Positions 27,926-42,505 of a stretch of DNA of 64,000 bases are shown in pieces. The stretch spans positions 14,541-78,540 of the forward strand of contig CAYWJO010000013.1 of the NCBI GenBank assembly GCA_964458565.1, given 5' to 3'. Position 1 is the first letter of the stretch. Every line of letters begins with the position of its first letter. This DNA comes from an uncultured archaeon (lineage in GTDB: Archaea > Asgardarchaeota > Thorarchaeia > Thorarchaeales > Thorarchaeaceae). A program made the position numbers and the translations under genes. Below the pieces are notes generated by a model that did not search any database, was not told the DNA's origin, and saw only the letters and a list, made by a program, of their open reading frames with translations.

Positions 27926-28261
27926 CTATCTTTCATTTTTCATAGCACCAAACGCCAACCGTTTAGCTGCTTCTCTCATTTCAGATAATTTCTCGCCATA
28001 TTGAATGACATCACTATAGAGATCCATTTGCTCATGAATACTCTTCTCAACATAGGATGAAACTGCTTCGGAGCGGCTTCTAAAAACATCAAGTTCAACG
28101 AGGGTGTCGATTATTTTAACTATATCTGCACTAAGTCGTGTCATCACATGGACTTCTCGCTTTTTGATCTCAAACTCCTCTGATTGAAGTTCACCAAGAA
28201 TTCTATCTTTTAGTGTGATCTGTACCTGGTCGCCCTCTGATTCACTTTTTTTCGGTGGCAT
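27926..28261 (-). CDS. Ribbon-helix-helix DNA-binding protein
   Basis: VMTRL (strand), DIVKIIDTLV (helix A), RSRSEAVSSYV (helix B). Confidence 0.7.
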   Translation of the reverse strand: MPPKKSESEGDQVQITLKDRILGELQSEEFEIKKREVHVMTRLSADIVKIIDTLVELDVFRSRSEAVSSYVEKSIHEQMDLYSDVIQYGEKLSEMREAAKRLAFGAMKNER

Positions 28262-28353
28262 TGTACCAACTCCATTTTGGTCTTACACATACATAGTATA
28301 CATTACGCTTAATAATCTTTATCATTAGGTAGATACCAATAACGAAACATTAT

Positions 28354-28391
28354 TAAGTTGTAAGATGTAATATAATTAACATAAGATGTAA
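28354..28391. promoter_or_regulatory. Direct repeats in the RHH/Lrp divergent promoter
   Basis: TAAGATGTAA at 28361 and 28382 (21-bp period), plus near copy TAAGTTGTAA at 28354. Confidence 0.5.
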
Positions 28392-28430: not shown

Positions 28431-29381
28431 ATGGATAAGCTTGACAAAACCCTGCTCCTGAAGCTTCTCAGCGATTGTAGAGCATCCTACAGAGAACTCG
28501 CAAGAGAGTTAGGAGTTACCTGTCCCACAATTAAGAGAAGAGTGGATAAACTCATCAAGTCAGGTATTATAGAGAGCTTCACCATCGATATCTCTCAAGA
28601 AACTCTTGGTGTAAGTTGGGTGTATGCTGAGATTGAAACCGATCTATCTGAAGATCGAAACGCATTAATCCATGCTATTTGTGCGCATAAATTCACAAAT
28701 GAGATATTCGCTGTTGGATCCAAGAAATACATCGTATTTGGTGAAGTACCGCTTCTCGAAGGTATGTATGACTATGGTAAATTCTTGCGAAGTCTAGATG
28801 GAGTATGCAATGTGGAAATCACACCTGTTCGGCAATTACCAACAAGCCAGCTCTCAACTAATAGCAAATACAGCTCAAGAGGTGGGAAGGTATCTTTCAC
28901 CGAACAGCACTTACGTATCTTGAGACATCTGATGAACAATGCCCGAATTTCCATTTTGGACCTCTCTGAAAAGGTCGGATTCAAACCAAAACGAGTAAGA
29001 CGGGTTCTAAAACAACTTGAAGAGAGTGAGGGAGTTCATTTCACAATACGATTCAATCCATCTGTGGAGGATTGTATCAGTTTCATCCTAAAGATCAGCT
29101 TCAATGAGAATATGATTGCTCCAGGTGATATCACCTATTGGATGGAAGAGGAATTTCCTCAAGAGTATTGGATGTCTTTTCTCCTCTCAAGTGGACCTGA
29201 GATGGTTAACTACATGACTGCTGATAGTCTCTCAGGTGTTGAGAAGATAATCCGAAGAATGAAGGAAATACGATTCATAAGTGATGTTGAAACGATGTTA
29301 ATCTATCATCTTGAGAAGCCGTCCGAAGACGGATCTCTGACCACATCCGAGATTACACTCGAGCCACTCTCTGCAGTATGA
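28431..29381 (+). CDS. Lrp/AsnC family regulator with two tandem HTH-RAM units (Lrp-A)
   Basis: MD.LD..LL..L..DCR.SYRELA..LG....I..RV..L...G.I; second HTH IL..L..NAR.S...L. Confidence 0.85.
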   Translation: MDKLDKTLLLKLLSDCRASYRELARELGVTCPTIKRRVDKLIKSGIIESFTIDISQETLGVSWVYAEIETDLSEDRNALIHAICAHKFTNEIFAVGSKKYIVFGEVPLLEGMYDYGKFLRSLDGVCNVEITPVRQLPTSQLSTNSKYSSRGGKVSFTEQHLRILRHLMNNARISILDLSEKVGFKPKRVRRVLKQLEESEGVHFTIRFNPSVEDCISFILKISFNENMIAPGDITYWMEEEFPQEYWMSFLLSSGPEMVNYMTADSLSGVEKIIRRMKEIRFISDVETMLIYHLEKPSEDGSLTTSEITLEPLSAV

Positions 29382-29530
29382 TTTTTTCTAGCTAAAAGAA
29401 TTACGTATACAGCGAATCCCTTGATTCTAAGATAATTCCATACATTTCGATTAATGACAATATTTCTGCAAGGGGCCGTTTTGTAACGCGGCCGCTTCAT
29501 GTTTTTCCATTTGTTCATGTGCATTGGCCG

Positions 29531-29566
29531 ATTTGGAAGACTCCGTCTTAACGTGAGTTTATACTA
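29531..29566 (+). promoter_or_regulatory. Promoter element copy 1 (AAGAC-tcc-GTCTT palindrome plus TTTATACT box)
   Basis: 27/36 ungapped identity with 31157..31192; lies upstream of the repeat-peptide gene. Confidence 0.6.
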
Positions 29567-29643
29567 TTCTTGTAGTATGTATTGTTCAAGTCATTCTCCT
29601 GAATCATTGCGAGAATGTACCGATAAAAAACAGTGGTGAAGAA

Positions 29644-29946
29644 ATGAATAAGAAAAACTTGCGAAGAATTGCAGCGGGACTCATCCTCTTTGCTTTCAGT
29701 ATTGGTATGCTTACCAGTCTGGCTGGCACCTTCATGACAAGTGGAGTTGCAGAAGCTGGGGATGATACAGCTGATGATTGGCCAAATCAGGATCAGGTAG
29801 TTGATTACCGCATTGATGAGCCCGCACATCCTGACCTTGATGAGTATCAAGTCGTAGATTATCGAATTGATACACCATCAGATGAATCAGGTTTAGAAGG
29901 CGAGGCTATTCAGGTAGTCGAATACAGAATCGATACTCCCTGGTGA
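29644..29946 (+). CDS. Small secreted protein with three QVV[DE]YRID[ET]P repeats (candidate multi-core peptide precursor)
   Basis: GGTGA SD; basic plus hydrophobic N-terminus ending in AEA; three amino-acid-conserved repeats with synonymous codon divergence; downstream terminator. Confidence 0.85.
   Translation: MNKKNLRRIAAGLILFAFSIGMLTSLAGTFMTSGVAEAGDDTADDWPNQDQVVDYRIDEPAHPDLDEYQVVDYRIDTPSDESGLEGEAIQVVEYRIDTPW
29794..29940 (+). repeat. Three 30-nt coding repeats (29794, 29848, 29911)
   Basis: QVVDYRIDEP / QVVDYRIDTP / QVVEYRIDTP. Confidence 0.9.
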
Positions 29947-29970
29947 TTCTCCCTGAAACTCATCTATACG

Positions 29971-30018
29971 CCTAGCGTTGTTTTGGCAGCGCTAGGTGAT
30001 TTTTCCTTTTATTTTCTT
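29971..30018 (+). terminator. Hairpin plus T-tract
   Basis: CCTAGCGTTG / CAGCGCTAGG stem followed by TTTTTCCTTTTATTTT. Confidence 0.65.
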
Positions 30019-30049
30019 ATCCGCTGTGAAAAAGAATGAGATGATGCAT

Positions 30050-31057
30050 ATGGATTTGCTAGATAAAAAGATCATACGAAGACTGTTAGGAAATTCAAGA
30101 GAATCCTTTCACAGTATTGCGAGAGCGTTTGATGTCACCTGTCCAACAATAACCTCACGTGTTAATCGGTTGAGACAGATGGGTGTGATCCAGCGCTTCG
30201 TAACGGAATTATCTCATGAAACAATGGGTGTTGAGTGGATTCTGACTGAGATAAAGACCAATGGTGGGATCAGGAAATCCGATCTGTTGCAGGAGTTCCA
30301 ATCGAATGCTTGTATCGGGGATGTTTACATGTTAGGCAGAAGTCGTTATCTTGTACTTGCTGAAGTCTATCCTGAAGAAAAGAGTGGATATGTATCATGC
30401 CTCAAGAAGATAGATGATATCGAATATATTGAGGTAAGTGATATTCATCCAATATCTACTCAGATTAGTAATGGAAACTGTAAATTCACAACAAGAGGGC
30501 AAAAGATAGATTTATCCCCCATCGAGGTGGATCTTTTAAGATTCCTGGTAAGGAACTCACGCACTCCAATAAAAACGATAACTGATTGCACAGGGTACAG
30601 TACAAAGCTTGTACGCAGAGTTATGAGGAAATTCATTCAGTGCAATGGCATACATCTCACGTTGAAACTAAATCTCTCACAATGTGGTCAGATTAATTTC
30701 ATACTACGCACCCGTCTAAGGGATATGACCGTGCAAGCTGATGAAATTGCAGATTGGGTATCTTGTAGGTACCCTGAGGAACTCTGGTTCACACTCTTTG
30801 CTCCTCGTTCAGACAGTCTTTTACACTATATGACCGTAAGGCAGCCACAGTCTATCGAGCGAGTGATTAGAGAGGCCATCAAGCACCCTCGCATCGAAGA
30901 TGTTGAAGCTACCATAATCTATAGTATGTTCAAATCAGAAGGACGAACGCAACAGTTCCTCAAACATTGTATTGGCAACTTCTCAGAGGATGAATTAGAA
31001 TTACCGTTATCTTCTCTCCACGAACCGAGTCTGTTAGAACAAGAAATACATACCTGA
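30050..31057 (+). CDS. Lrp/AsnC family double-domain regulator (Lrp-B), paralogue of Lrp-A
   Basis: MDLLDKKI...L..NSR.S...IA...VTCPTI; shares VTCPTI, S.ET.GV.W...EI.T, K...RG.K and YMT with Lrp-A. Confidence 0.85.
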   Translation: MDLLDKKIIRRLLGNSRESFHSIARAFDVTCPTITSRVNRLRQMGVIQRFVTELSHETMGVEWILTEIKTNGGIRKSDLLQEFQSNACIGDVYMLGRSRYLVLAEVYPEEKSGYVSCLKKIDDIEYIEVSDIHPISTQISNGNCKFTTRGQKIDLSPIEVDLLRFLVRNSRTPIKTITDCTGYSTKLVRRVMRKFIQCNGIHLTLKLNLSQCGQINFILRTRLRDMTVQADEIADWVSCRYPEELWFTLFAPRSDSLLHYMTVRQPQSIERVIREAIKHPRIEDVEATIIYSMFKSEGRTQQFLKHCIGNFSEDELELPLSSLHEPSLLEQEIHT

Positions 31058-31068
31058 ATCAAACACAC

Positions 31069-31101
31069 GAGCTGAAGGATCTGTCTCCAATCCTTCAGCT
31101 C
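31069..31101. terminator. Perfect 12-bp inverted repeat after Lrp-B
   Basis: GAGCTGAAGGAT-N9-ATCCTTCAGCTC. Confidence 0.6.
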
Positions 31102-31156
31102 TCCTTCATTATCTAGTTTGATACAATTTTAGGACTATCGATTATCAAAAAGGGAA

Positions 31157-31192
31157 ATTTGTAAGAGACTCTCGTAACGCGTCTTTATACTA
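31157..31192 (+). promoter_or_regulatory. Promoter element copy 2
   Basis: ATTTGTAAGAGACTCTCGTAACGCGTCTTTATACTA, 27/36 identical to 29531..29566. Confidence 0.6.
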
Positions 31193-31209
31193 ATAATTTC
31201 TCTATAACT

Positions 31210-31340
31210 CCTACAAGTGTCACTCAAACCAAATTTGGATGTAATGGATTTCCTGAAAGACGGTCTTCCTTATCACCTCTTCATCTCCTCACGAGTGCAC
31301 TTCGGGTGGGGGGCTGGTCACTCCCCGCTCGTATTTTTTC
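31210..31340 (+). ncRNA. Candidate small RNA (boundaries approximate)
   Basis: Lies between the conserved TATA promoter and an 11-bp G-U-containing stem (31303-31331) plus T6. No credible ORF ends before the terminator. Contains ATCACCTC. Confidence 0.35.
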
Positions 31341-31420: not shown

Positions 31421-34400
31421 TCATCTTTTTTTCTTATAGATAATCACGACAACCAAAATGCCTATGGAACATCCACCTATCAACAGCAACGGTCCCCAAA
31501 GTTCCCAATCAATACAAGGCCACACACAAGGTTCTACCTCCTCTTCACCCTTAACGACAATAACTTCAGCTATGCCAATGAGATCCCCATTGAGATATCC
31601 ATAAATGGTGAACTGTCGCTCATCATCGATTTCTGCATCATCAGTTGGTTCGAAAGTTATCGTGATTTCCTGATATTCTCCAGGTGCCAATGAATGCAGA
31701 GCCAAACCATCTATCTCACATCTCCAAAGTGGCAATGTGCTATCAACCTGTCTTGCTACTAAGAACACAGTACCCGTAGGACCACTTGTTTCATTCGATG
31801 GATTTCCAACAATCATTGTTACATTGACTGGAGAGGTGGCAGTTGCAATCTTTATGTTTTCTTGAGCCTTATTATTTGAGAGGTGCAAATCAGCAGGATC
31901 ACAGGAGGTGATGGTTGCTCTTATGCACCTGTCTCCGTATATCAATGGGGTCCACGTTATGGATGCGTATTCCTGACTTCCTGCCGGTACCGTAATACTC
32001 ACGATATCAGTAGGACTGGGTTCAATCTCCTCCCACAATCCTCCTGGCTGACCTACACCATAGTCACCTATTGAAAAGGTCACCTCTGTGTTTATCGCAT
32101 CAACTGTTGCAAGGTTATGTATCGTCGCCCTTATAGTATATTTTTCTCTCATCTCCAAACCATATCTATCTATGACCGCTCCTGTATCATAGTCACGAAT
32201 CTCGATATCTGGATTATCAGGAGATGGATTCACATCATGTCCCGATCCTGCTGGATTGGCAACCCACGTGGATTCCACCCACCAACTATAGATGAATGGA
32301 TCTGGAAGAACTCCAGGTGGTAGTACTCGATATTGAGTCACTGCTGCCTTTGTTACACCCTGCTTAGCGATGATGTTGATTGTACCTTCCAAGAGACCTG
32401 AAGGTATTATGTAATCTATCACTGTGTCAGCGGTAGTCACTGTAGTACTGAACGGAGCTAATCCATCCACAGTGATATCAATTGTTCCTGCATCAAAGTG
32501 TTTCAATGTGATTTTTGTTGGAGTGCCTTCCGGTCCTTGAACTGGATCGATTGTTATCTCTCCTCCATCGCTAACAGCAATCTCGTAATTGAACTCGGGT
32601 TGTATATAGTTGTGTTTTGTGACTGTAAGATGTATGTTTTCACCAGATGTGGGAGCAAGCTCAAAGTATGCATTACCATTCCCATCTGTATATCTGACTT
32701 CGAGTATGTCTGGGTCTCTGAAGAGACACACCTTTGCATTATTTACAGGGGTAATTCCATCTGTAACGGAAACCACAAATGACTGAGTATAAGTGGATCC
32801 AATCGTATCAGGATAGGTAATTGTCAACGGGGTGGGAAGTGATGTCCAGATTTCCATCTCGGGGTCGCCAAAGAGATTGAAGAGTTCAAGTGTTTCATCT
32901 AAAGCCGTCGGATAGTCACTAAATTTGAGAAGTATACTTTCATATTCAGTGATCCCCTGTCCTGCAGTAAGCAGCTTACCATAAGCAATGATTTGACCAA
33001 GGTCGTAAAGGCCTCCTGAAGCATATCTTTCATCAAAGTCATCCCAGATAGCATCAACGAAGCCCTTCAATAGGATATCATTCCATCCGCTATAACTCAT
33101 TCGAGATGATCCAATTGTAGCAACGGCTCCCTTTGGTCCTAGATCAGGATCATAAAGATTCACTAGTTCTTCACAGAGTGAGTCTACATCTCTACTCAAA
33201 ACAATATCATCATCATCATCAGTTTCACTATCAAACCAACCGGTGTTACAATCCATACTGAATATGACTGGCCAATTATTATCATAATTTTCCAGACCCC
33301 CGATATGATCCTCGATAATGAACTGAGGTAAAGACCATCCGTCTCTATCTGTTATGAAATTACCCTCTTCATGATTATAGAAATTACTTGATACTCCATG
33401 GTCCCGGTGAAAGATCAGGAATTTACCTGAATTAAAACAATCAACAATATCTTTTTCTTTCCCTGTATCACTTACAGTCTCTGGCCATTTGTAATTTAAT
33501 CCATAATCCCATGAATATCCTGTATACCAAGCCGCATCGATTAAATTATATCCATTGATTTCTGTTTCCTCGAAATACTTTTCGGGAGCATGAGACCTCC
33601 AAACACTTATTGGATTTGTGCAGTAGATTCGTTCTGTGGAATAGTCATTTTGATCAAGAAATTGCGCAATTTGTTCTGAAGTCAAAATAAATGGACGGTC
33701 TTCCTCCCCATCAGAACCGTCTTCAGCTACATCATCAATACCATCGTCATTAGAATCAACAAGGGAATATTCATCTTGGAAGCAAGAAACTGCACCAACG
33801 TTTGTATAGAACGAAGGCACATCAACCGGATTCTGCTCATAGTCTATTATCTTCTTGATGACCTGAGATAATGTGTCTAAATCATCTACAGGAAGTCTAC
33901 CGATGAATATATCACTAAAAGAATCAAGTCCATCAACTGTTGTGTAAATTACATCTGAAGCAATATACCCAAAGGCCTCACCTACGGGGTGATGCTCTTC
34001 TCTTCCACTAAAAGTTTCATAATTTGTTGGTATGAGATTTGTATCTCCAACTAGTAGAATATAGGTGGGAGCAGTTGCCCACGTTGTATATGCATTACTT
34101 ATCTGCGTTTTAATACCTGCACTAGTAATAGGGGGCGATAGAGTCCAAATCTTTGTTCTAAGCCCCTTCATTTGTTTCCAAGTGGCAAGTGTATCTACAT
34201 CATATTCATACGAGCCTGTAATATCATCAAGATTTGAATGAGTGATGATGAGATAATCTACATTTTCAGGTCCCTGGGACGGTATGATTGGAGCTACTGG
34301 CATCATTGATTGCATGGGGCGATTTAATGGGTCATAATTTAGAATCATCCCTGAGAGCATTTCTTCAAAGGGCTGAGAGTACAGGTTATCATCTATCGGA

Positions 34401-35146
34401 TCTATTTGTGAAAGGACGGAGTATTCAATCTTGATTTTGATGTTCGAATATACTCTCATTATGTTAAGTTGAGGATTGATTTGAATTGGAAAAAAAATGA
34501 GTTGAACCAACCTATGGCCTCTAATTTTCATAGGTGCGTTATCTACCGCACCTATGATTTTTGCTGGTTGGAAAGGGAAGTAAGTATTATTTGAATAAGT
34601 GATATAATCAATAAAGTGAGGGCTTGCAGTGATGTTTGGATGATCTACTTGTGGTTCTTGAGCTGGCGAGATATTGAATCCTGTATGAAGTTTGTAATTA
34701 GCTGATTCAATATGAAGACTGACGTTGACATCCCTTGGGATTTCTATAAACCGAGAAACGATGGGAACTGCAGGTTTCCCGACATCCTCCAATAGACTTC
34801 CTCCTGGCAGGCGGAACAAATCGTATATCATTCCCTCTAGAGGTATCTTCAGCAAATGCGCTCCGTAAAATGTTGATTCGACCATAATTCCTGTTGTATC
34901 ACTTGAGAGAGGGATTATCTCTGGTTTCGTATCTGGTATGGACCCATTTATGAACTCAAACCAAGTACTACTGGACCAGTCTGATTCTTCAAATTGTTCG
35001 TAGTAATCCTTCTCAATCTTTTCGCCCTCTATCATTTCTATAGATAGATGGGACAGTGATATTGGTGGACCAATTATAATCAGGATGACAAGCGCACATG
35101 AAAATCTCAGCTTAAGATTCCGGTTCAAAAATCTGCTATCCTTCAT
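31421..35146 (-). CDS. C25 family (gingipain-like) cysteine peptidase, secreted and membrane anchored
   Basis: Signal peptide; propeptide (G.P.VP...F.EIP); YLII, YILLVGD...IP, SD..Y, GRLP, HRDHG, DCNTG, GAVA.IG.SR and NLFGDP motifs; Ig/CARDB-like domains; TM plus KKKR. Confidence 0.9.
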   Translation of the reverse strand: MKDSRFLNRNLKLRFSCALVILIIIGPPISLSHLSIEMIEGEKIEKDYYEQFEESDWSSSTWFEFINGSIPDTKPEIIPLSSDTTGIMVESTFYGAHLLKIPLEGMIYDLFRLPGGSLLEDVGKPAVPIVSRFIEIPRDVNVSLHIESANYKLHTGFNISPAQEPQVDHPNITASPHFIDYITYSNNTYFPFQPAKIIGAVDNAPMKIRGHRLVQLIFFPIQINPQLNIMRVYSNIKIKIEYSVLSQIDPIDDNLYSQPFEEMLSGMILNYDPLNRPMQSMMPVAPIIPSQGPENVDYLIITHSNLDDITGSYEYDVDTLATWKQMKGLRTKIWTLSPPITSAGIKTQISNAYTTWATAPTYILLVGDTNLIPTNYETFSGREEHHPVGEAFGYIASDVIYTTVDGLDSFSDIFIGRLPVDDLDTLSQVIKKIIDYEQNPVDVPSFYTNVGAVSCFQDEYSLVDSNDDGIDDVAEDGSDGEEDRPFILTSEQIAQFLDQNDYSTERIYCTNPISVWRSHAPEKYFEETEINGYNLIDAAWYTGYSWDYGLNYKWPETVSDTGKEKDIVDCFNSGKFLIFHRDHGVSSNFYNHEEGNFITDRDGWSLPQFIIEDHIGGLENYDNNWPVIFSMDCNTGWFDSETDDDDDIVLSRDVDSLCEELVNLYDPDLGPKGAVATIGSSRMSYSGWNDILLKGFVDAIWDDFDERYASGGLYDLGQIIAYGKLLTAGQGITEYESILLKFSDYPTALDETLELFNLFGDPEMEIWTSLPTPLTITYPDTIGSTYTQSFVVSVTDGITPVNNAKVCLFRDPDILEVRYTDGNGNAYFELAPTSGENIHLTVTKHNYIQPEFNYEIAVSDGGEITIDPVQGPEGTPTKITLKHFDAGTIDITVDGLAPFSTTVTTADTVIDYIIPSGLLEGTINIIAKQGVTKAAVTQYRVLPPGVLPDPFIYSWWVESTWVANPAGSGHDVNPSPDNPDIEIRDYDTGAVIDRYGLEMREKYTIRATIHNLATVDAINTEVTFSIGDYGVGQPGGLWEEIEPSPTDIVSITVPAGSQEYASITWTPLIYGDRCIRATITSCDPADLHLSNNKAQENIKIATATSPVNVTMIVGNPSNETSGPTGTVFLVARQVDSTLPLWRCEIDGLALHSLAPGEYQEITITFEPTDDAEIDDERQFTIYGYLNGDLIGIAEVIVVKGEEEVEPCVWPCIDWELWGPLLLIGGCSIGILVVVIIYKKKR

Positions 35147-35279: not shown

Positions 35280-35963
35280 ATGAAAAATGACTTGAGGAGT
35301 TTCACTGTGGTACAAGATGCAATTACCCCTTTGGGATATCACTATATCCGTTGTTTTTGGCGATTTGTTCACGACAAAGCATTTCCCGGCCCTACCAATT
35401 TGAGCGAATTCATCAAAAGATTACGGTGCATTGCACGTTTGACACGACATGATCTTGTCGAAAAGCTATACGGTCTAGATCGAGAAGGTAATCCACTGAA
35501 TGAATTCTTTGAAAAATTAGTAGAGAACTATAAGACATTGCTTGAAACCATATTCGATAAATATCCCATTCTAAAGAAAAGCGTAAATGGGAAACGGACT
35601 CCATTCATTCGATGTCTATGGCGATATATCCACATTCTTGCTTTTGGTGATCCGGAGATAGACCCGTTAAAACAGCTCGCTAAATTCAAATGTTATAGAA
35701 AAGTTCCGAAAATTCTAAGAGATATACCTAATTATCTCAGTTCTAAATCGTTTTATACAGTGGTTGACTGTTACATAAAAATCATCTTTGCTGTATTCCA
35801 CGAGAATCCTGAACTAGGTGATCCGGGTGATATTGATTGGGGTGGAGACGACGAGTATGATGGATTTGGACCTTGTATAATACATCAACCTCCCAACCCA
35901 CCTGATTGTGATTACATTGGGAGAACGATACAGGGTTATTGCCCGACTCATTATCCACTATAG
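35280..35963 (+). CDS. Hypothetical protein with an internal ~87-aa duplication (start possibly GTG 35307)
   Basis: YIRCFWRFVHDKAFPGP versus FIRCLWRYIHILAFGDP; GAGGAG SD before GTG 35307. Confidence 0.7.
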   Translation: MKNDLRSFTVVQDAITPLGYHYIRCFWRFVHDKAFPGPTNLSEFIKRLRCIARLTRHDLVEKLYGLDREGNPLNEFFEKLVENYKTLLETIFDKYPILKKSVNGKRTPFIRCLWRYIHILAFGDPEIDPLKQLAKFKCYRKVPKILRDIPNYLSSKSFYTVVDCYIKIIFAVFHENPELGDPGDIDWGGDDEYDGFGPCIIHQPPNPPDCDYIGRTIQGYCPTHYPL

Positions 35964-35989: not shown

Positions 35990-37471
35990 TTATACTCCTT
36001 CCAATCTTTTTATTATTCTCTCTAAGTAGTTTAGATTGTTTTCTTGAATTATCACACGAAGCTGTTTCAACACACCTTTGCCTTCATTATATTTCTCCTG
36101 AAACAGATACCATTGAGTTTTGTAAAACAAAGCTTGTCCCAAGATTCCAGGCAAGTCATTCGATTGTGCTCTCTCTTCCAACAATGTAAGCCATGGACCA
36201 AGCCCTTTGGAGGTGTCTGCGAATTGGCTTGACCCTGCAAGAAGAACTTCACTCTTCGCTAAATGATGCAAACAGATGTACTCGCTCATTAAAGTCCCCC
36301 TCCGATTGTAGATGTCCAATGCCTCTTCAAGACTTGCTTGTGCCTGAAGAAAGTTATTCTTCTCAAGTTCTATAATCCCATCAATAAGGTATAATGCAGC
36401 AAGATGTGACTCCAATCCTGACTTCAATATATTTTCCCGGACTTCATCTACCAACTCAGTCGCACCTGAAATATCCTGCATCAAACAAAGTGCCCAGGCT
36501 TGGTTAAGAATTGCTCTTGGTTTGTGTACCGGCTGAAATTCAACCTCTGCCATCTTTGCCCACTCAAGACCCGCCTCGGCATTTCCAATTGAATTGAAGA
36601 GTGTAGAGAGAGTTATGGCATATGGTCCTATTGGTTTACCCAAGCTCTGACGCAGTGTAATATTTTCCAAGTTGTGTTCAATAGCTTGATCGTATTCTCC
36701 GCGAATTGCTTCAATTTTACTCAATTGAAAGATGGTATAGCTTAAACCATCTTTATCCCCCATAGATTTCAACATATCCAGTGATTGCAGGAGTAATTCT
36801 AGAGATGCTTTCAAATCAGATGATTGTATGTGTACTGCTTTGGTACGTAAAATTCGAGCTAATCTATTCTCATCGTTGTATTCCTCAGCAATTGATGCAG
36901 CACTTTCAATGTTTTGAATGAGTTCATCTGTATCGCCATCCCTTGATGCTCTTATGGCTAGCAAATCATGTAGTCTTGCCTCGTAAAAACGAAATTGAGA
37001 ATTTGGTTTGAGTAATCCCATGATTCTATCTAATGTGGTGCTATCAAACAAACACTTAGGATATACAAATGATTCCGCTTCGAATTTGATCAGGAGCATC
37101 TCTAGCTCTAACCACTTTGGAGGGTTACTCTTAAGCACTTCATCAACTGCTTCTCTTGTTTTCTCAATATCCGCTTCTCTACCTTGATACGCACTTGCAA
37201 AAAAGAGATGCGGCCGTATTATAGTCAGGTCCCCGTATTTCTGAGCAATTCTTTCTAAGCAATTGAAATCGGAAACAATCGAGGCATGATATGTAGCAAA
37301 ATATGCAGTTAGCTCTGAGACCTCTTCATTACAGGCTTTGTGATTCAAGATTTGCACAAAATCATAATAATTGTACGCCGCTTCCATGCAATTCTGAATA
37401 TTCTCTTTAGTAACCGAGTCAATAAATGGAAAATACATTGTAATGGTACCGATTGGTTGGAACTCCTGCAC
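35990..37471 (-). CDS. TPR-repeat protein
   Basis: Repeated A...L...G.Y..A helical pairs of about 40 aa. Confidence 0.8.
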   Translation of the reverse strand: MQEFQPIGTITMYFPFIDSVTKENIQNCMEAAYNYYDFVQILNHKACNEEVSELTAYFATYHASIVSDFNCLERIAQKYGDLTIIRPHLFFASAYQGREADIEKTREAVDEVLKSNPPKWLELEMLLIKFEAESFVYPKCLFDSTTLDRIMGLLKPNSQFRFYEARLHDLLAIRASRDGDTDELIQNIESAASIAEEYNDENRLARILRTKAVHIQSSDLKASLELLLQSLDMLKSMGDKDGLSYTIFQLSKIEAIRGEYDQAIEHNLENITLRQSLGKPIGPYAITLSTLFNSIGNAEAGLEWAKMAEVEFQPVHKPRAILNQAWALCLMQDISGATELVDEVRENILKSGLESHLAALYLIDGIIELEKNNFLQAQASLEEALDIYNRRGTLMSEYICLHHLAKSEVLLAGSSQFADTSKGLGPWLTLLEERAQSNDLPGILGQALFYKTQWYLFQEKYNEGKGVLKQLRVIIQENNLNYLERIIKRLEGV

Positions 37472-38964: not shown

Positions 38965-39199
38965 AATATATTCCCTTCAATTGTAGTGAATAAATAGATC
39001 TCCAAACAATATACGCTATAGAAGTAATTAGTGTTTTCTACCAATTTCAATCCTGCGGAACATTCCGTCATCTCATCAATTTAAGTTTTTCAAGCAAACC
39101 AAAGGTCGTATCATTGGTTGGCATAACAAACGCTTTTGGAAATATTTATAACATGACTTTATCTCAGGCACGACTATCAATTCTGGAGTCGTTAGATAA

Positions 39200-42100
39200 A
39201 TGACAAGCAGACACACCGAAGGTAAGGTACGAGACTTTGAGATGACAATAGAGGATGCTGCTCGTCTAGCTGAGTGTTTCAACTCATTTGATGATAGCGA
39301 CTCATGGCCGGGCGGCTTTACCCAAGGAAATCCATACACAGCTCAGAGAATCTTCGATGACCTTAGTAAAAGAAAGAATCTCCGGATAATCGTAGCAGTT
39401 GCAGATGATAAGATAGTGGGGCACTGTAATCTTGCATACCCCGAACGAGACCCCGAGTCTTCATACGTAGGGTTACTCGGTGTTAATCCGAACTATCAGG
39501 GGCAGGGTTATGGAAAAGCGCTCTTAATCGAGGCAGCAGAAACTGCGGCTCAATTTGACAAGAGACGTGTTGACCTACACACCTGGGGTGGGAACCTCAA
39601 AGCGGTCCCGCTCTATAAGAGAACCGGATACAATTGGGTTCCAGCAACGCGTGTGTTGATGGAATCGCATATCCCAGGAATCATCGGATGTCCACTATTC
39701 AAGGAATTCTTCGAACGCCATTACTGGTACGATGTGTTCAAGCCTGATGTAAAACAAGAAATGGATGACATTGTAGATGATGGCATTGGCGTCTTCAAGT
39801 ATCCCTTTGAGGCTGATAATGGGGATTCTCTTGAAGTTACTGTGGATCGAGAGGCTAAAGGCATCTGCGGTTTTGTGTTGACTATGGATGGAAAGACTAT
39901 TTCAGCAGATGTTAGACCGGAAAGTCACAAAGGCCACATTGGATTTGGAAAGGTGCCTGCAAAGCTTGTAATTCAAAATCAGAGTGATGAACCACTAGCC
40001 TACTCTGTTTTGATTTCGCCTGATGATAGCCTTGCAGTAGATATTGTAAGTCCCACTTCAGGTACAATCGAAGTTGGAAAAATTGTAGAGATTAAAGCTG
40101 ATTATGAAATCCTCCCAAAAACTGATCATCTGGATAGGGAATCAATAGCCGACATCAAAATAGACACTCAAGCAGAATGGTCACTAACACTTGGTGGGAA
40201 ATCAATCAATCTCTATGCTGGGATTATCCCTAATGAAGCAATTTCATTAACAATGGGTCCAAAACAGACAAGTTTTGGAATCAATGAATCCAAGAGCATT
40301 ATCCTATCTCTGAAGAATAATACTGAACGTAAACTTGAGGGCAAATTGGTACTCACTCCAAAGTCCTCAACTGAACCTGAAAATAGAGTCATGGATTTCT
40401 CTATTCCTGAAAATCGAGATAGTCACATTCCATTGACTATAAAATCTGATAATATTGATAACAGTTCCTTAATCTCATTCGAAGTTTCAATCTATGTGAG
40501 TGATGATGGTCGTGATGTGCTAGTAAACAATCGATCATTGAATTTGAGTGTAATTGGTTCAACTGGTGCACTCGTCTACGAGGATTTGGATAATCATTAC
40601 ATCTTGGAAACCGAGTCGTTCTTAGTCCGAATTATGAAGATTCCACCAATGGTGGTTGATAAAATTATTCACAAAGTATCTGGCAACCAATATGGAGGAT
40701 GGGCGTTGATGCCCCATATTGGCTATCCATTTACAAGTGGAGGGTCCGAGTGGGACCGAAAGCGATTTGATGTAACATTGAGGAATGAAGGTGAATTTGC
40801 TGAGATTGAACTTGCAGCTGACTCAATAGAACGTCCGGGTATGAGGTTTTCTATCATGTTTCGAGCATATGCGGGACGCGAATATATGACCTATTCAACG
40901 CGATTCACAAATCTTGGTACAACAACTTTGAAAGATATGGGTATCAGAGTTGGTGGATGGATGGCCTTCTATTTTGATCAGATGCACATCCCGTTAAATA
41001 ATGAAATATACCGACTTAATTCGTGTGATTGGCATGGATACAGGCAAATTCCCAAGTCACCTGAATATTATCATGAGGGATGGAGTGCAATGACTCAAGC
41101 TGATGGTAGTATGTGTATTGGTTACATCTGGAATCAGGAATGTCTAAAGGAAATCATTCCAAAGCGGTCTTGGGGAATCTCCACCTTCGAGTATACGCTA
41201 CCCGATCTTGCTCCAGGTGATATCCACGAACAGAAAATATTCAACCTTATGATAGGTCATGGTGATTGGAAGAAGGTGCATGCATTGTGGGCGAGATTGA
41301 ATGGGCTCTCTCTCGATAACGAAGAACCGAGAGATATCCGTTCTGATTTAGAAATGGAACTTGTTCGCGCAAAAGACCGAGATGGAACAATCCTTGGGTC
41401 GCCTGTCTTGCTTGACCGAAGTACTGAAAATGAACTTGAAGTTCGAGTACGAGTCCTTTCCGAAGAACCGATGTCTGGTGATATAGTGCTGAGGTTGCCA
41501 AATGGTCTAACCTCAGAAGGCAGTAAAGAGATTCAAATCAAGGCAGAGGACATATCCATCAAATCGTCTTTCAAGAAGCCAATTATGGTTACAGTTGAGG
41601 CTACAGACGATTGGATTCTCACAGGTGGTGAGATGAAGTTTATTGGTGGTAGTAGGATCGACACAATTCCCATTACAGCTATATTATACGATTCCAAGGT
41701 AGATGTTGAGAAGCAGACTGAACCTATCCAAGGTTTGGAATTACGCACTCTCATAAGTGGTAGATCTAGAATTGCAGTTTCTGCTGACTACGCAGGCACT
41801 CTTACTAAATTTGGACCTGTTGGGGAAGAGAGCTACTTCTATGATACTTTCCCGGAAGCCAAACCGTATATCTGGTGGGATAAGCACTACAGTGGAGTAA
41901 TGCCTGTAATCTGGTCTACAGATGTCTGGGACTGGGAATCGGGTCTCTCCAAAGAGAAATGGTCTATGCAAGAAACCACTTCTGGGAACTGGAAGGGATA
42001 TGAGTTAAGATCAACTCTTGAACATTCGATAAAGCTTCAAGGTGTCGAAACAATAGTTCGTTTCTTGCAGTTAAACGATGCTCCTGCAGTTTATTCTGAA

Positions 42101-42505
42101 ATAAGAGCAGTAAACAAGACACCACAGTGGAAGGAGTTGTATCTCGGATTTAGGGGATCACCACGTCTGAACGGAAAATCACAGAGTTGGATTCACAGTA
42201 TAGCAAATGGTACGCCTGTTGATTACCAACCTACAGACAGTGAAGCTGATGTTCGTGTCAGTCCAGATGCTGGGTGGGCAGCCTTTAGAGAACCCGAAAG
42301 CGGAATGGTGTTGGGAGTTGTTTCGACCTGTCATTCTGGGTTGGGTATCTCTGCTGACAATCTAGGTGCCAATGCGCAAATGATTTGGGTAAGAGAGCGA
42401 AGATTGATACCTCCTAATGCGGAAACCAGGCTCTCATGTTACTACCTTGCAGCCCCCTCTGTAGAAAGCGTGCGCTATTCAAGAGGGCTTCCAGCTTTGG
42501 ACTAA
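39200..42505 (+). CDS. Large protein with N-terminal GNAT acetyltransferase and C-terminal beta-rich domains
   Basis: V.P.YQGQGYGKAL and N.KA..LYKR.G acetyl-CoA-binding motifs. Confidence 0.8.
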   Translation: MTSRHTEGKVRDFEMTIEDAARLAECFNSFDDSDSWPGGFTQGNPYTAQRIFDDLSKRKNLRIIVAVADDKIVGHCNLAYPERDPESSYVGLLGVNPNYQGQGYGKALLIEAAETAAQFDKRRVDLHTWGGNLKAVPLYKRTGYNWVPATRVLMESHIPGIIGCPLFKEFFERHYWYDVFKPDVKQEMDDIVDDGIGVFKYPFEADNGDSLEVTVDREAKGICGFVLTMDGKTISADVRPESHKGHIGFGKVPAKLVIQNQSDEPLAYSVLISPDDSLAVDIVSPTSGTIEVGKIVEIKADYEILPKTDHLDRESIADIKIDTQAEWSLTLGGKSINLYAGIIPNEAISLTMGPKQTSFGINESKSIILSLKNNTERKLEGKLVLTPKSSTEPENRVMDFSIPENRDSHIPLTIKSDNIDNSSLISFEVSIYVSDDGRDVLVNNRSLNLSVIGSTGALVYEDLDNHYILETESFLVRIMKIPPMVVDKIIHKVSGNQYGGWALMPHIGYPFTSGGSEWDRKRFDVTLRNEGEFAEIELAADSIERPGMRFSIMFRAYAGREYMTYSTRFTNLGTTTLKDMGIRVGGWMAFYFDQMHIPLNNEIYRLNSCDWHGYRQIPKSPEYYHEGWSAMTQADGSMCIGYIWNQECLKEIIPKRSWGISTFEYTLPDLAPGDIHEQKIFNLMIGHGDWKKVHALWARLNGLSLDNEEPRDIRSDLEMELVRAKDRDGTILGSPVLLDRSTENELEVRVRVLSEEPMSGDIVLRLPNGLTSEGSKEIQIKAEDISIKSSFKKPIMVTVEATDDWILTGGEMKFIGGSRIDTIPITAILYDSKVDVEKQTEPIQGLELRTLISGRSRIAVSADYAGTLTKFGPVGEESYFYDTFPEAKPYIWWDKHYSGVMPVIWSTDVWDWESGLSKEKWSMQETTSGNWKGYELRSTLEHSIKLQGVETIVRFLQLNDAPAVYSEIRAVNKTPQWKELYLGFRGSPRLNGKSQSWIHSIANGTPVDYQPTDSEADVRVSPDAGWAAFREPESGMVLGVVSTCHSGLGISADNLGANAQMIWVRERRLIPPNAETRLSCYYLAAPSVESVRYSRGLPALD

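What the first reader, a model, noticed from the sequence alone, without database searches (positions are those of the whole stretch)
28431..31340. Candidate undescribed peptide-signalling locus: [Lrp-A, promoter, secreted repeat precursor] + [Lrp-B, same promoter, sRNA-like unit]
Seen: two paralogous double-Lrp regulators, each followed by the same promoter element and a short terminated unit. One unit encodes a secreted three-repeat peptide; the other appears non-coding. An anchored C25 protease and a TPR protein lie nearby. Known: Lrp RAM domains bind amino-acid-type effectors, and bacterial agr couples a processed peptide to a regulatory RNA. Inference: a cell-cell signalling or differentiation circuit in an Asgard-type archaeon. 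I know of no described equivalent but could not search for one.
Basis: partly seen in the sequence, partly recalled or inferred. Interest (0 to 1): 0.85.

Follow-up and report, generated by a model that had tools for sequence, protein, structure and literature searches.

The report
Thorarchaeal peptide, Lrp and sRNA module
A gene cluster conserved in a few uncultured Thorarchaeota (Asgard archaea) links two fused double-Lrp regulators to one special promoter that drives an exported three-repeat mini-protein and a structured small RNA; it looks like a peptide signalling circuit of a kind not described in archaea, but signalling is not shown.

Summary
Both regulators are complete double Lrp/AsnC proteins. 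The 36-nt element occurs only at these two places in the genome, and its consensus (TTTGGAAG-N9-TAACGCG-N3-TTATAC) recurs 26 times in related Thorarchaeota loci. The strict form has no match outside Thorarchaeota in 596 Gb of genomes.

The peptide belongs to a Thorarchaeota-only family of 26 clusters. Of these, 23 end exactly five residues after an aromatic-Arg pair. Unit B is a real structured sRNA: a long covarying stem encloses an unpaired CAUCUCCUCAC box, and its core is 93% identical to a relative whose flanking genes are about 70% identical.

The conserved cassette is promoter, peptide, hairpin, Lrp-B (14 of 14 loci, duplicated whole in one). Lrp-A pairs with a divergent RHH gene. A single-copy TPR protein accompanies the locus in 9 loci and a C25 protease in 4. 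By VIA-align the TPR model matches Rap/AimR/NprR peptide receptors as well as any other TPR protein.

The scan had noted this stretch before, only on this genome.

The parts
27926..28261 (-). 111-aa ribbon-helix-helix-like regulator gene, always divergent from Lrp-A
   Evidence: An orthologue lies next to Lrp-A in 14/14 loci. There is no Pfam hit. The only other hit is weak, to the AbmR C-terminus. The RHH assignment is read from the sequence pattern.
28349..28380 (+). Conserved element of the RHH/Lrp-A divergent promoter (TATA-like TTATTAAG, then a near-palindrome GTAATAnTATTAC)
   Evidence: Present in 14/14 intergenic regions compared. Its role as an operator is inferred.
28431..29381 (+). 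Lrp-A, a fused double Lrp/AsnC regulator (316 aa)
   Evidence: Pfam HTH_24 and HTH_AsnC-type hits, two stretches. AF2 model 2 x (wHTH + RAM), pLDDT 87.8. Foldseek matches NirDL over the full length and Lrp/AsnC regulators per half. Orthologues are 55-72% identical.
29474..29493 (+). Hairpin after Lrp-A (terminator-like)
29531..29566 (+). Promoter element A: TTTGGAAG (29532-29539), N9, TAACGTG (29549-29555), TTTATAC (29558-29564)
   Evidence: Repeat D2. Unique in the genome. Consensus from 26 instances.
29587..29617 (+). Conserved 5'-UTR start CAAGTCA plus hairpin CATTCTC/GAGAATG of the peptide mRNA
   Evidence: Present in all peptide-type units, including distant ones. The transcript start is inferred from the TATA distance.
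29644..29946 (+). 100-aa exported or anchored pro-peptide: N-terminal hydrophobic segment, three aromatic-R/K-x-D/N-x-P cores, and Arg at position -6
29969..29998 (+). Hairpin GCCTAGCG../..CGCTAGGC plus T-run between the peptide gene and Lrp-B (terminator or attenuator)
   Evidence: The stem is conserved or compensated across genera. Model R1 matches it because its stem resembles the genus-g8 sRNA stem.
30050..31057 (+). Lrp-B, the second fused double Lrp/AsnC regulator, cassette partner of the peptide gene
31069..31101 (.). Perfect 12-bp inverted repeat after Lrp-B (terminator-like hairpin)
   Evidence: (I17). An equivalent hairpin is present in L054 and L055.
31157..31192 (+). Promoter element B: TTTGTAAG (31158-31165), N9, TAACGCG (31175-31181), TTTATAC (31184-31190)
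31215..31302 (+). sRNA core: outer stem 31215-31225 / 31293-31302 closing a loop that holds ATCACCTC and the box CATCTCCTCAC (31282-31292)
   Evidence: Folds. 93% identical to L054 against 67-71% for the flanking CDS. A further copy is in L061. The same architecture with six other stem sequences is seen in relatives. No Rfam family matches.
31303..31340 (+). Terminator hairpin (11 pairs) plus T6 of the sRNA
   Evidence: In L054 and L061 the hairpin sequence differs but hairpin plus T-run is kept.
31421..35146 (-). 1241-aa peptidase C25 (gingipain family) with propeptide, N-terminal signal-like segment and C-terminal TM + KKKR anchor
   Evidence: Pfam E 1e-44. RgpB alignment includes the His-Gly motif. 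Orthologues lie in L024, L031 and L033, directly after Lrp-B or after the small-protein gene.
35990..37471 (-). 493-aa cytoplasmic all-helical TPR protein, single copy in the genome
   Evidence: It is a neighbour of the locus in 9 loci.

Best explanation
This is a Thorarchaeota-specific regulatory module that most likely works as a peptide-based signalling loop.

Shown:
- Two fused double Lrp/AsnC regulators lie in the locus. Lrp-A is paired with a divergent RHH gene, and Lrp-B is in a cassette with the peptide gene.
- One bipartite promoter element (TTTGGAAG-N9-TAACGCG-N3-TTATAC) sits in front of the pro-peptide gene and of a ~125-nt structured sRNA.
- In more distant relatives the same element also precedes Lrp-B and other small exported repeat proteins.
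- A surface-anchored C25 protease and a Rap-like TPR protein are recurrent neighbours.

Inferred mechanism:
1. A double Lrp binds the asymmetric upstream half-sites with its two unlike wHTH domains. It then activates promoters whose BRE position is occupied by TAACGCG, as Lrp-type activators such as Ptr2 do (my own knowledge).
2. The pro-peptide is exported by its N-terminal hydrophobic segment.
3. The Arg/Lys-specific C25 protease cuts after the invariant aromatic-Arg/Lys of each core. This releases, among other fragments, the variable C-terminal pentapeptide (IDTPW here).
4. The fragments are taken up by one of the many Opp-type transporters.
5. They are sensed either by the TPR protein or by a RAM domain of Lrp-B, and this feeds back on the element.
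6. The sRNA is the post-transcriptional output arm. Its exposed CU-rich anti-Shine-Dalgarno-like box masks ribosome-binding sites, and the Lrp-A site is the best candidate.
For: Regulators:
- Both are double Lrp/AsnC proteins by sequence and fold.
- HTH1 is the best conserved domain of both, at 72-73%.

Promoter element:
- It occurs only twice in the genome.
- There are 26 distinct instances with fixed spacing in related loci.
- The strict form has three matches in 596 Gb of genomes, all in this locus in Thorarchaeota.

Cassette:
- The peptide gene lies directly upstream of Lrp-B in 14/14 loci.
- The whole cassette is duplicated in L031. Its peptide CDS (75% DNA identity) has diverged faster than the promoter and 5'UTR (89%) or Lrp-B (83%). 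The changes lie in core 1, the last five residues and RAM1 of Lrp-B.

Peptide:
- The family has 26 clusters, all Thorarchaeota or unnamed.
- It is found in 8 of 400 Asgard genomes, all in one family.
- The cores are conserved and the spacers are not.
- 23/26 members end five residues after aromatic-Arg, with 19 different pentapeptides.

Protease and receptor candidate:
- C25 is a gingipain relative. It lies directly after Lrp-B or the small-protein gene in L024, L031 and L033.
- The TPR protein is single copy and lies in 9 loci.
- The TPR model has pLDDT 93.8. Its top VIA-align rows are Rap, AimR and NprR peptide receptors at Z 20-23.
- About 18 OppA-type binding-protein genes are present in the genome.

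sRNA:
- All eight unit-B sequences folded put the box in the loop of a long outer stem (seven of them already).
- 92% of stem cells are paired, against 33-42% when the partner is slid. 7 of 14 pairs change on both sides.
- Model R1 finds exactly one copy in each of the five g8 genomes that have the peptide, including the untrained G017, and none in the other 81 genomes.
- The core is 93% identical to L054.
- Predicted pairing of the loop with the locus's own Lrp-A RBS gives z -1.6 to -3.9 in 6 of 8 loci, and about 0 for the peptide.
Against:
- Nothing shows that an Lrp binds the element, that the peptide is exported or cut, or that fragments are sensed.
- The N-terminal hydrophobic segment is as conserved as the cores and has no clear signal-peptidase site in genus g8. 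The protein may therefore stay membrane-anchored.
- The core motif is conserved across genera, unlike fast-diverging pherotype signals.
- The TPR match to Rap is tied with LGN and MalT, and the TPR protein has no recognisable output domain.
- C25 is absent from several loci, for example L054 and L029.
- Across orthologues, RAM1 of Lrp-B is not specially variable.
- Lrp RAM domains are known to bind amino acids, not peptides.
- Model R1, built from genus g8, does not detect the window's sRNA. Homology of the two sRNA types therefore rests on promoter, box and architecture.
- The distribution is patchy: 3-4 of 16 genera.
Confidence: 0.4

Rival explanations
1. This is a feast/famine nutrient regulon, not communication. 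The double Lrps sense free amino acids produced by extracellular proteolysis and control the C25 protease and accessory genes. The small repeat protein is a surface-tethered accessory of the protease (a bait substrate, inhibitor or docking partner), not a signal precursor. The sRNA fine-tunes the regulators.
For: - Lrp/AsnC proteins are classic amino-acid sensors, and the halves match amino-acid-bound Lrp structures.
- The neighbourhood is rich in peptidases: M3 at 15176-16954 and C25.
- A paralogous double Lrp lies next to an OppA-type gene.
- The hydrophobic N-terminus of the small protein is conserved (G21, G28 and F30 invariant or nearly so), as expected for a retained anchor.
- The core motif is conserved across genera.
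- C25 follows Lrp-B directly in L024.
Against: - C25 is missing from several loci that keep the peptide, Lrp-B and the sRNA (L054, L015, L032).
- The exact 'Arg + 5 residues' C-terminus with 19 variants is not explained by a docking role.
- Nor is the duplication of the peptide + Lrp-B cassette with divergent tails.
Confidence: 0.3
2. The small protein is simply a lineage-specific membrane or cell-surface protein, one of several small acidic repeat proteins under the same promoter. It has a structural or adhesive role. Lrp-A, Lrp-B and RHH are its dedicated regulators, and TPR and C25 are neighbours with no mechanistic link to the peptide.
For: - The same promoter and 5'UTR drive unrelated small exported repeat proteins in other Thorarchaeota: L055 (WELDEDIQ x3), L029, L033 and L034.
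- No processing or transport genes are conserved in the locus.
- The RHH family is widespread (60/86 genomes) and the TPR family is large (98 representatives at E<1e-30). Both are broader than the peptide family.
Against: - TPR is single copy in this genome yet adjacent in 9 loci with different gene orders. That argues for a functional link.
- The invariant Arg at position -6 and the diversified pentapeptide tails suggest processing.
Confidence: 0.17
3. Unit B is not an independent sRNA. It could be a decayed copy of a peptide cassette, a small ORF (MDFLKDG[L/H]PYHLFISSRVH...), or a cis-acting 3' element of Lrp-B.
For: - The tandem duplication (1616-1626-nt register) implies that unit B arose from a peptide-type unit.
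- The genus-g8 sRNA stem resembles the peptide 3' hairpin.
- An ATG-started frame is open in W, L054 and L061.
- In L055 and L031 the unit after Lrp-B is another peptide gene.
Against: - The frame is closed or shifted in G071 (ATC TCC TCA TGA) and has no counterpart in g8.
- The stem covaries.
- Conservation is highest over the stem-to-stem core and drops at both edges.
- In g8 the unit lies away from Lrp-B, with its own promoter and terminator.
Confidence: 0.1
4. The Lrp-like proteins are enzymes of the NirDL/AhbAB siroheme decarboxylase type rather than regulators, or the peptide is a multi-core RiPP or bacteriocin precursor.
For: - NirDL is the best full-length structural match (TM 0.55).
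- Lrp-B has a weak AhbB hit (20.8 bits).
- Multi-core precursors exist among RiPPs (my own knowledge).
Against: - The AhbB score is far below its cut-off of 125 bits.
- The best sequence matches are LysM, AsnC and Lrp regulators.
- The genome has six paralogues, and conserved operators lie next to the genes.
- No radical-SAM, cyclase, ABC exporter or immunity gene is among the conserved neighbours.
- The precursor carries a Sec-type N-terminus, not a RiPP leader.
Confidence: 0.03

Closest known systems
Rap-Phr and other RRNPP peptide-receptor cassettes of Firmicutes and their phages
   Same: - The pro-peptide is exported by a Sec-type N-terminus.
- The candidate active part is the C-terminal five residues, released by an extracellular protease.
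- The peptide gene lies next to a regulator gene, cassettes duplicate and diverge, and Opp uptake is available.
- A cytoplasmic TPR protein has Rap, AimR and NprR as its top VIA-align rows, at Z 20-23.
   Different: - The gene adjacent to the peptide gene is a double Lrp/AsnC regulator, not the TPR protein.
- The TPR protein has no HTH or phosphatase-type output that I could detect.
- The precursor has three cores.
- The host is an archaeon. RRNPP is described for Gram-positive bacteria and their viruses (PMC12700828, title and abstract).
- No step has been tested.
Staphylococcal agr (AgrD peptide plus RNAIII from divergent, co-regulated promoters)
   Same: One regulator-controlled promoter type drives both a peptide precursor and a regulatory RNA. 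That RNA acts, by inference here, on ribosome-binding sites.
   Different: - There is no AgrB-type maturase, thiolactone motif, histidine kinase or response regulator among the conserved neighbours.
- The sRNA is ~125 nt and has no Rfam match.
Multi-copy pheromone or neuropeptide precursors of eukaryotes (for example yeast alpha-factor prepro-protein cut by Kex2; my own knowledge)
   Same: A signal sequence is followed by tandem conserved cores, separated by variable acidic spacers and each bounded by a basic residue. A dedicated membrane-anchored endoprotease is encoded nearby.
   Different: - The basic site is single and follows an aromatic residue rather than being dibasic.
- The protease is clan CD C25, not a kexin.
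- There is no homology.
- Whether the internal cores are released is unknown.
Archaeal Lrp-family activators such as Ptr2 of Methanocaldococcus, and TFB-RF1-type activation at weak-BRE promoters (my own knowledge)
   Same: The Lrp-type wHTH + RAM regulator has candidate sites just upstream of BRE/TATA, at fixed distance.
   Different: - Two complete Lrp units are fused in one chain.
- The site is asymmetric (TTTGGAAG and TAACGCG), not a palindrome bound by a homodimer.
- Binding is untested.
NirDL / AhbAB siroheme decarboxylases
   Same: It is the only solved protein with the same fused double AsnC-like architecture (TM 0.55).
   Different: - Sequence identity is only 13%.
- The family model is not reached.
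- The genomic context is regulatory, not haem synthesis.

Membership tests
Lrp/AsnC (FFRP) transcription regulators | N-terminal AsnC-type winged helix-turn-helix | tested here: met
   Lrp-A: PF13404 at E 1.2e-19 and PF13412 at 1.3e-21, with two stretches. Lrp-B: 1.5e-10 and 3.1e-11. The best NCBIfam hits are LysM, AsnC and Lrp, below their equivalog cut-offs.
Lrp/AsnC (FFRP) transcription regulators | C-terminal RAM (beta-alpha-beta-beta-alpha-beta) effector domain | tested here: met
   There is no Pfam PF01037 hit by sequence. The AF2 model nevertheless shows the fold after each wHTH, and each half superposes on solved Lrp/AsnC proteins (TMt 0.6-0.75).
Lrp/AsnC (FFRP) transcription regulators | Binds DNA and responds to a small effector | not testable with these tools
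   Only indirect evidence: conserved elements lie next to the genes.
Siroheme decarboxylase NirDL/AhbAB | Match to the family's sequence model | tested here: not met
   NF040707 AhbB scores 20.8 bits against a cut-off of 125 for Lrp-B, and gives no hit for Lrp-A. Only the fold is shared.
RRNPP peptide receptors (Rap, NprR, PlcR, PrgX, AimR) | TPR superhelix that encloses the peptide | tested here: inconclusive
   By VIA-align, Rap scores Z 23.4 (337 residues aligned, rmsd 5.1), AimR 21.3 and NprR 20.0. These are tied with LGN (22.6) and MalT domain III (22.2). Foldseek ranks LGN first.
RRNPP peptide receptors (Rap, NprR, PlcR, PrgX, AimR) | Receptor gene adjacent to its pro-peptide gene | tested here: not met
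   The adjacent gene is Lrp-B in 14/14 loci. The TPR gene lies 1-20 kb away, in varying order.
RRNPP peptide receptors (Rap, NprR, PlcR, PrgX, AimR) | Output domain (HTH or phosphatase/response-regulator-binding bundle) on the TPR protein | tested here: inconclusive
   Pfam and NCBIfam give only weak TPR hits. The N-terminal helices align to Rap and AimR N-terminal parts, but with no sequence support.
agr-type quorum sensing | AgrB maturase plus AgrC/AgrA two-component pair beside the peptide gene | tested here: not met
   None appears among the called neighbours and their Pfam families in 12 loci.
Peptidase C25 (gingipains) | C25 catalytic domain and propeptide | tested here: met
   PF01364 at E 1.2e-44 over the full profile, and PF08126 at 4.8e-10. 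phmmer hits RgpB at 2.7e-12.
Peptidase C25 (gingipains) | Catalytic His-Cys dyad and Arg/Lys-specific S1 pocket | tested here: inconclusive
   The His-Gly motif (FHRDHG) aligns to YTGHG of RgpB only in a weak stretch. The Cys (DCNTG) and the S1 Asp were read by eye and not aligned.
Any Rfam RNA family (for the sRNA) | Reaches a family's gathering score | tested here: not met
   No match in the whole window.

The most novel reading that the evidence does not exclude
This would be the first peptide-pheromone (quorum-sensing-like) system of Archaea, in the Asgard lineage. An exported multi-core precursor is cut by a surface gingipain-type protease into short peptides, including a strain-variable C-terminal pentapeptide. 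The peptides are re-imported and sensed by a fused double-Lrp regulator and/or a Rap-like TPR protein. Outputs are auto-induction and a dedicated anti-Shine-Dalgarno sRNA. An Lrp RAM domain as a peptide receptor would itself be new.
Probability: 0.3. Interest if true: 0.92.

Novelty: new variant of a known kind. Interest (0 to 1): 0.7.

Why it matters
- No peptide-based cell-cell signalling system has been described in Archaea, as far as my four literature searches reach. Very little is known about regulation or social behaviour in Asgard archaea, the closest prokaryotic relatives of eukaryotes.
- Whatever its function, the locus offers defined parts that can be tested outside the uncultured host:
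  - a new promoter/operator architecture with 26 aligned instances;
  - a new class of single-chain double Lrp regulators with an asymmetric site;
  - a new structured sRNA family with an exposed anti-SD-like box;
  - a new family of exported multi-core mini-proteins with a precise 'Arg + 5' C-terminus.
- If the signalling reading holds, it would show convergent invention of Phr-like or alpha-factor-like pro-peptide processing in archaea.
- If the nutrient reading holds, it would show how protein-degrading Thorarchaeota control an extracellular gingipain-type protease.

Tried and rejected
- **Co-folding.** The TPR protein with peptide residues 41-100 gave 'no answer' (score 0.00, controls not run). 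This is neither support nor evidence against.
- **Covariance model R1.** It was built from genus g8 only and did not find the window's or G071's sRNA, with default filters or with filters off. Its best hit in the window was the peptide 3' hairpin.
- **sRNA target search.**
  - A 14-nt perfect complement of the box sits at the RBS of a 93-aa wHTH gene (G000:C52:14837).
  - About 0.7 such matches are expected by chance for a 39-nt query. That gene belongs to a 7-12-member paralogous family.
  - The exact 11-mer sites in five relatives do not fall at its homologues. Dropped as a target.
  - The peptide and Lrp-B RBS show no special pairing.
- **Pattern scans.** The relaxed promoter pattern in metagenome contigs gave three chance hits in AT-rich TARA contigs and one true locus, L061.
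- **RAM1 as a fast-evolving receptor domain.** This is seen only in the L031 duplicate pair, not across orthologues.
- **MAFFT alignment of the two downstream regions.** It was uninformative beyond the 36-nt element. MAFFT also could not align all sRNA types together.
- **Siroheme decarboxylase and RiPP readings.** Both rejected; see the rival explanations.
- **Other double-Lrp paralogues of the genome.** None has the element or a peptide gene.
- **Literature.** Four searches found no description of this system.

Full report
**What is in the window**

The stretch holds the following, in order:
- a 111-aa RHH-like gene (27926-28261, minus strand);
- Lrp-A (28431-29381);
- a 100-aa ORF with a hydrophobic N-terminus and three QVV[DE]YRID[ET]P repeats (29644-29946);
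- Lrp-B (best start 30050, end 31057);
- a gene-free 360 nt;
- a convergent 1241-aa C25 peptidase (31421-35146);
- an unassigned 227-aa ORF;
- a 493-aa TPR protein (35990-37471).

Lrp-A and Lrp-B are 30% identical over their whole length. Repeats in a 1616-1626-nt register show a tandem duplication of a unit made of an Lrp gene plus its downstream promoter.

The 36-nt element (29531-29566 and 31157-31192) is 75% identical between its two copies. Its core occurs nowhere else in the 3.7-Mb assembly. Hairpin plus T-run terminators close both downstream units.

**The regulators**

The AlphaFold2 model of Lrp-A (pLDDT 87.8, pTM 0.81) is two complete wHTH + RAM units in one chain. Each half superposes on solved Lrp/AsnC regulators. 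The only full-length structural match is the fused siroheme decarboxylase NirDL, at TM 0.55 and 13% identity.

Sequence models point to LysM, AsnC and Lrp regulators. The AhbB model scores 20.8 bits against a cut-off of 125. The genome has six such double-Lrp paralogues, and the other four lack the element and the peptide gene. I read them as regulators, not enzymes.

**Organism and distribution**

Source names of the orthologues identify Candidatus Thorarchaeota.
- The peptide family has 26 clusters at 90% identity among 5.8 billion proteins. All are unnamed or Thorarchaeota 'hypothetical' proteins.
- It is found in 8 of 400 Asgard genomes, all in one family, in 3-4 of its 16 genera.

**Conserved anatomy across loci**

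I compared the window with 17 loci from genomes and metagenomes.
- The peptide gene is directly followed by an Lrp-B-type gene in all 14 loci where this can be judged. In L031 the cassette is duplicated in tandem.
- Lrp-A is always divergent from the RHH gene. Their shared intergenic region has its own conserved element.
- Lrp-A is next to the peptide gene in only about two thirds of loci. In G016, G017, G019 and L032 it is elsewhere or convergent.
- The TPR protein is single copy in this genome and lies near the module in 9 loci with differing gene orders.
- C25 lies in 4 loci. In L024, L031 and L033 it comes directly after Lrp-B or after the small-protein gene.

**The promoter element**

Twenty-six distinct instances give C-NN-TTTGGAAG-N9-TAACGCG-N3-TTATAC with fixed spacing. 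The strict form has three matches in 596 Gb of species-representative genomes, and all three lie in this locus in two Thorarchaeota MAGs.

The element precedes four kinds of unit:
- the peptide genes;
- the sRNA;
- Lrp-B itself, in more distant Thorarchaeota (L029, L033, L034);
- other small exported acidic repeat proteins (L029, L033, L034, L055).

TAACGCG occupies the BRE position directly upstream of the TATA box, and TTTGGAAG lies about 27 nt upstream of it. I infer an activator-dependent promoter read by the two unlike wHTH domains of a double Lrp. HTH1 is the most conserved domain of both proteins. Binding is not shown.

**The peptide**

Alignment shows a conserved hydrophobic N-terminal segment, variable acidic spacers and three cores of the form aromatic-[RK]-x-[DN]-x-P.
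- In 23 of 26 family members the protein ends exactly five residues after an aromatic-Arg pair.
- Those last five residues are diverse: 19 variants, such as IDTPW, IDCPF, IISPF, LITTD and VIGPD.
- In the duplicated cassettes of L031 the peptides differ mainly in core 1 and the last five residues. The Lrp-B copies differ mainly in RAM1, at 74% against 88-92% for the other domains.
- That last pattern is a single case and does not generalise across orthologues.

A basic residue before a short variable C-terminal tail, a neighbouring surface-anchored relative of the Arg/Lys-specific gingipains and abundant Opp-type binding proteins fit Phr-like maturation and uptake. Every step of that is inference. 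Whether the N-terminus is cleaved or stays as an anchor is open.

**The sRNA (unit B)**

- All eight unit-B sequences folded, from different genomes, place the box CAUCUCCUCAC unpaired inside a loop closed by a 10-13-bp stem (seven of them already). The box varies slightly in G071, G015 and L031.
- The stem has six different sequences.
- On the six genus-g8-type sequences, 92% of stem cells pair, against 33-42% when the partner is slid. 7 of 14 pairs change on both sides.
- A covariance model of these finds exactly one copy in each of the five g8 genomes that carry the peptide, and none in the other 81 genomes of the family. One of the five is G017, which was not used for training; there the unit lies beside RHH/Lrp-A.
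- The model does not detect the window's version. The link between the two types therefore rests on the shared promoter, the identical 11-nt box (chance about 4e-5 in a 150-nt unit) and the same architecture.
- Against the closest relative L054, the stem-to-stem core (31215-31302) is 93% identical. Flanking coding sequences are 67-71% identical, the spacer before the stem 42%, and the terminator hairpin 51%, although hairpin plus T-run is kept. L061 adds a G-U-compatible change in the stem.
- A short ORF open in W, L054 and L061 is closed in G071 and absent in g8, so a non-coding role is favoured.
- No Rfam family matches.

The loop is CU-rich, and in the window it also contains AUCACCUC. The only recurrent predicted target among the locus genes is the Lrp-A ribosome-binding site, with z -1.6 to -3.9 in 6 of 8 loci. 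This is a weak lead.

**The TPR protein**

The model is confident (pLDDT 93.8). Foldseek gives generic TPR matches. VIA-align puts Rap with bound pheromone first (Z 23.4), followed by RapJ, AimR, RapF and NprR (Z 20-22.5). These are tied with LGN and MalT domain III. The fold is thus compatible with an RRNPP-like peptide receptor but not diagnostic of one. The family is large, with 98 representatives at E<1e-30, all about 490 aa.

**Comparison with known systems and verdict**

The module works most like Rap-Phr/RRNPP cassettes, with an agr-like RNA arm, but it is a member of neither.
- The cassette regulator is a double Lrp.
- The TPR gene is not adjacent to the peptide gene.
- No AgrB or two-component genes are present.

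My four literature searches found no description of such a system in archaea. I rate a conserved, co-regulated module with these parts as well supported (about 0.85). Peptide signalling as its function I put at about 0.4, with an amino-acid/protease 'feast-famine' regulon as the main rival (0.3).

Earlier notes of this scan cover the same stretch of the same genome only. They agree with what I found and were not independent evidence.

Noticed in passing
window 28349-28380 (and the RHH/Lrp-A intergenic region of 13 other loci): A second conserved cis element, distinct from the finding's promoter: TATA-like TTATTAAG followed by TTGT(C/A)AGATGTAATA(C/T)(T/A)ATTAAC. It contains the near-palindrome GTAATAnTATTAC and is present in 14/14 loci. 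It is probably the autoregulatory operator of the divergent RHH/Lrp-A pair.
   Followed up: partly
window 29587-29617; same position in L015, L027, L029, L033, L034, L054, L055: The peptide-type transcripts share a conserved 5' end, (C/T)AAGTCA, and a 5'-UTR hairpin (CATTCTC..GAGAATG here) whose stem changes compensate between lineages. Its function is unknown.
   Followed up: partly
window 29969-29998; L016 ~455-490; L022; L023: The hairpin between the peptide gene and Lrp-B keeps the stem sequence GCCTAGCG/CGCTAGGC across genera, with T-A to C-G compensations in G019 and G071. It resembles the outer stem of the genus-g8 sRNA. This suggests common descent, or a common binding partner.
   Followed up: partly
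L055 1902-2246; L029 8716-9123; L033 10463-10675; L034 13931-14554: In other Thorarchaeota the same promoter and 5'UTR drive unrelated small exported acidic repeat proteins. Examples are WELDEDIQ x3 ending YVTDTPI, VRERLHDK x2 ending ENLPF, and one ending VRLPF. The regulon therefore controls a changeable set of mini-proteins.
   Followed up: partly
G000:C52:14837-14850 (outside the window): A 14-nt perfect complement of the sRNA box covers the ribosome-binding site of a 93-aa wHTH gene. It is not conserved in relatives and is near chance expectation.
   Followed up: yes
G000:C29:4254-7037 (outside the window): A paralogous double-Lrp gene (C29:6195-7037) lies next to an OppA-type solute-binding protein gene. 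The genome has about 18 such binding-protein genes.
   Followed up: no
L054 3601-5060: In the closest relative, the TPR orthologue directly follows the sRNA unit (there is no C25 between them). It is split into two ORFs, which could be a frameshift or an assembly error.
   Followed up: no
The M14 assignment and the start codons were not checked.
   Followed up: no
window 39117-39163: A weak look-alike of the promoter element (TTTTGGAAA..TAACATGACTTTATC) lies 37 nt before a 1101-aa GNAT-fusion gene (39200-42505). It lacks the consensus spacing and is probably chance.
   Followed up: no
window 35280-35963: A 227-aa ORF between C25 and TPR has no Pfam or NCBIfam hit. No homologue was found in the 18 related loci compared (tblastn), so it is not part of the conserved module.
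   Followed up: partly
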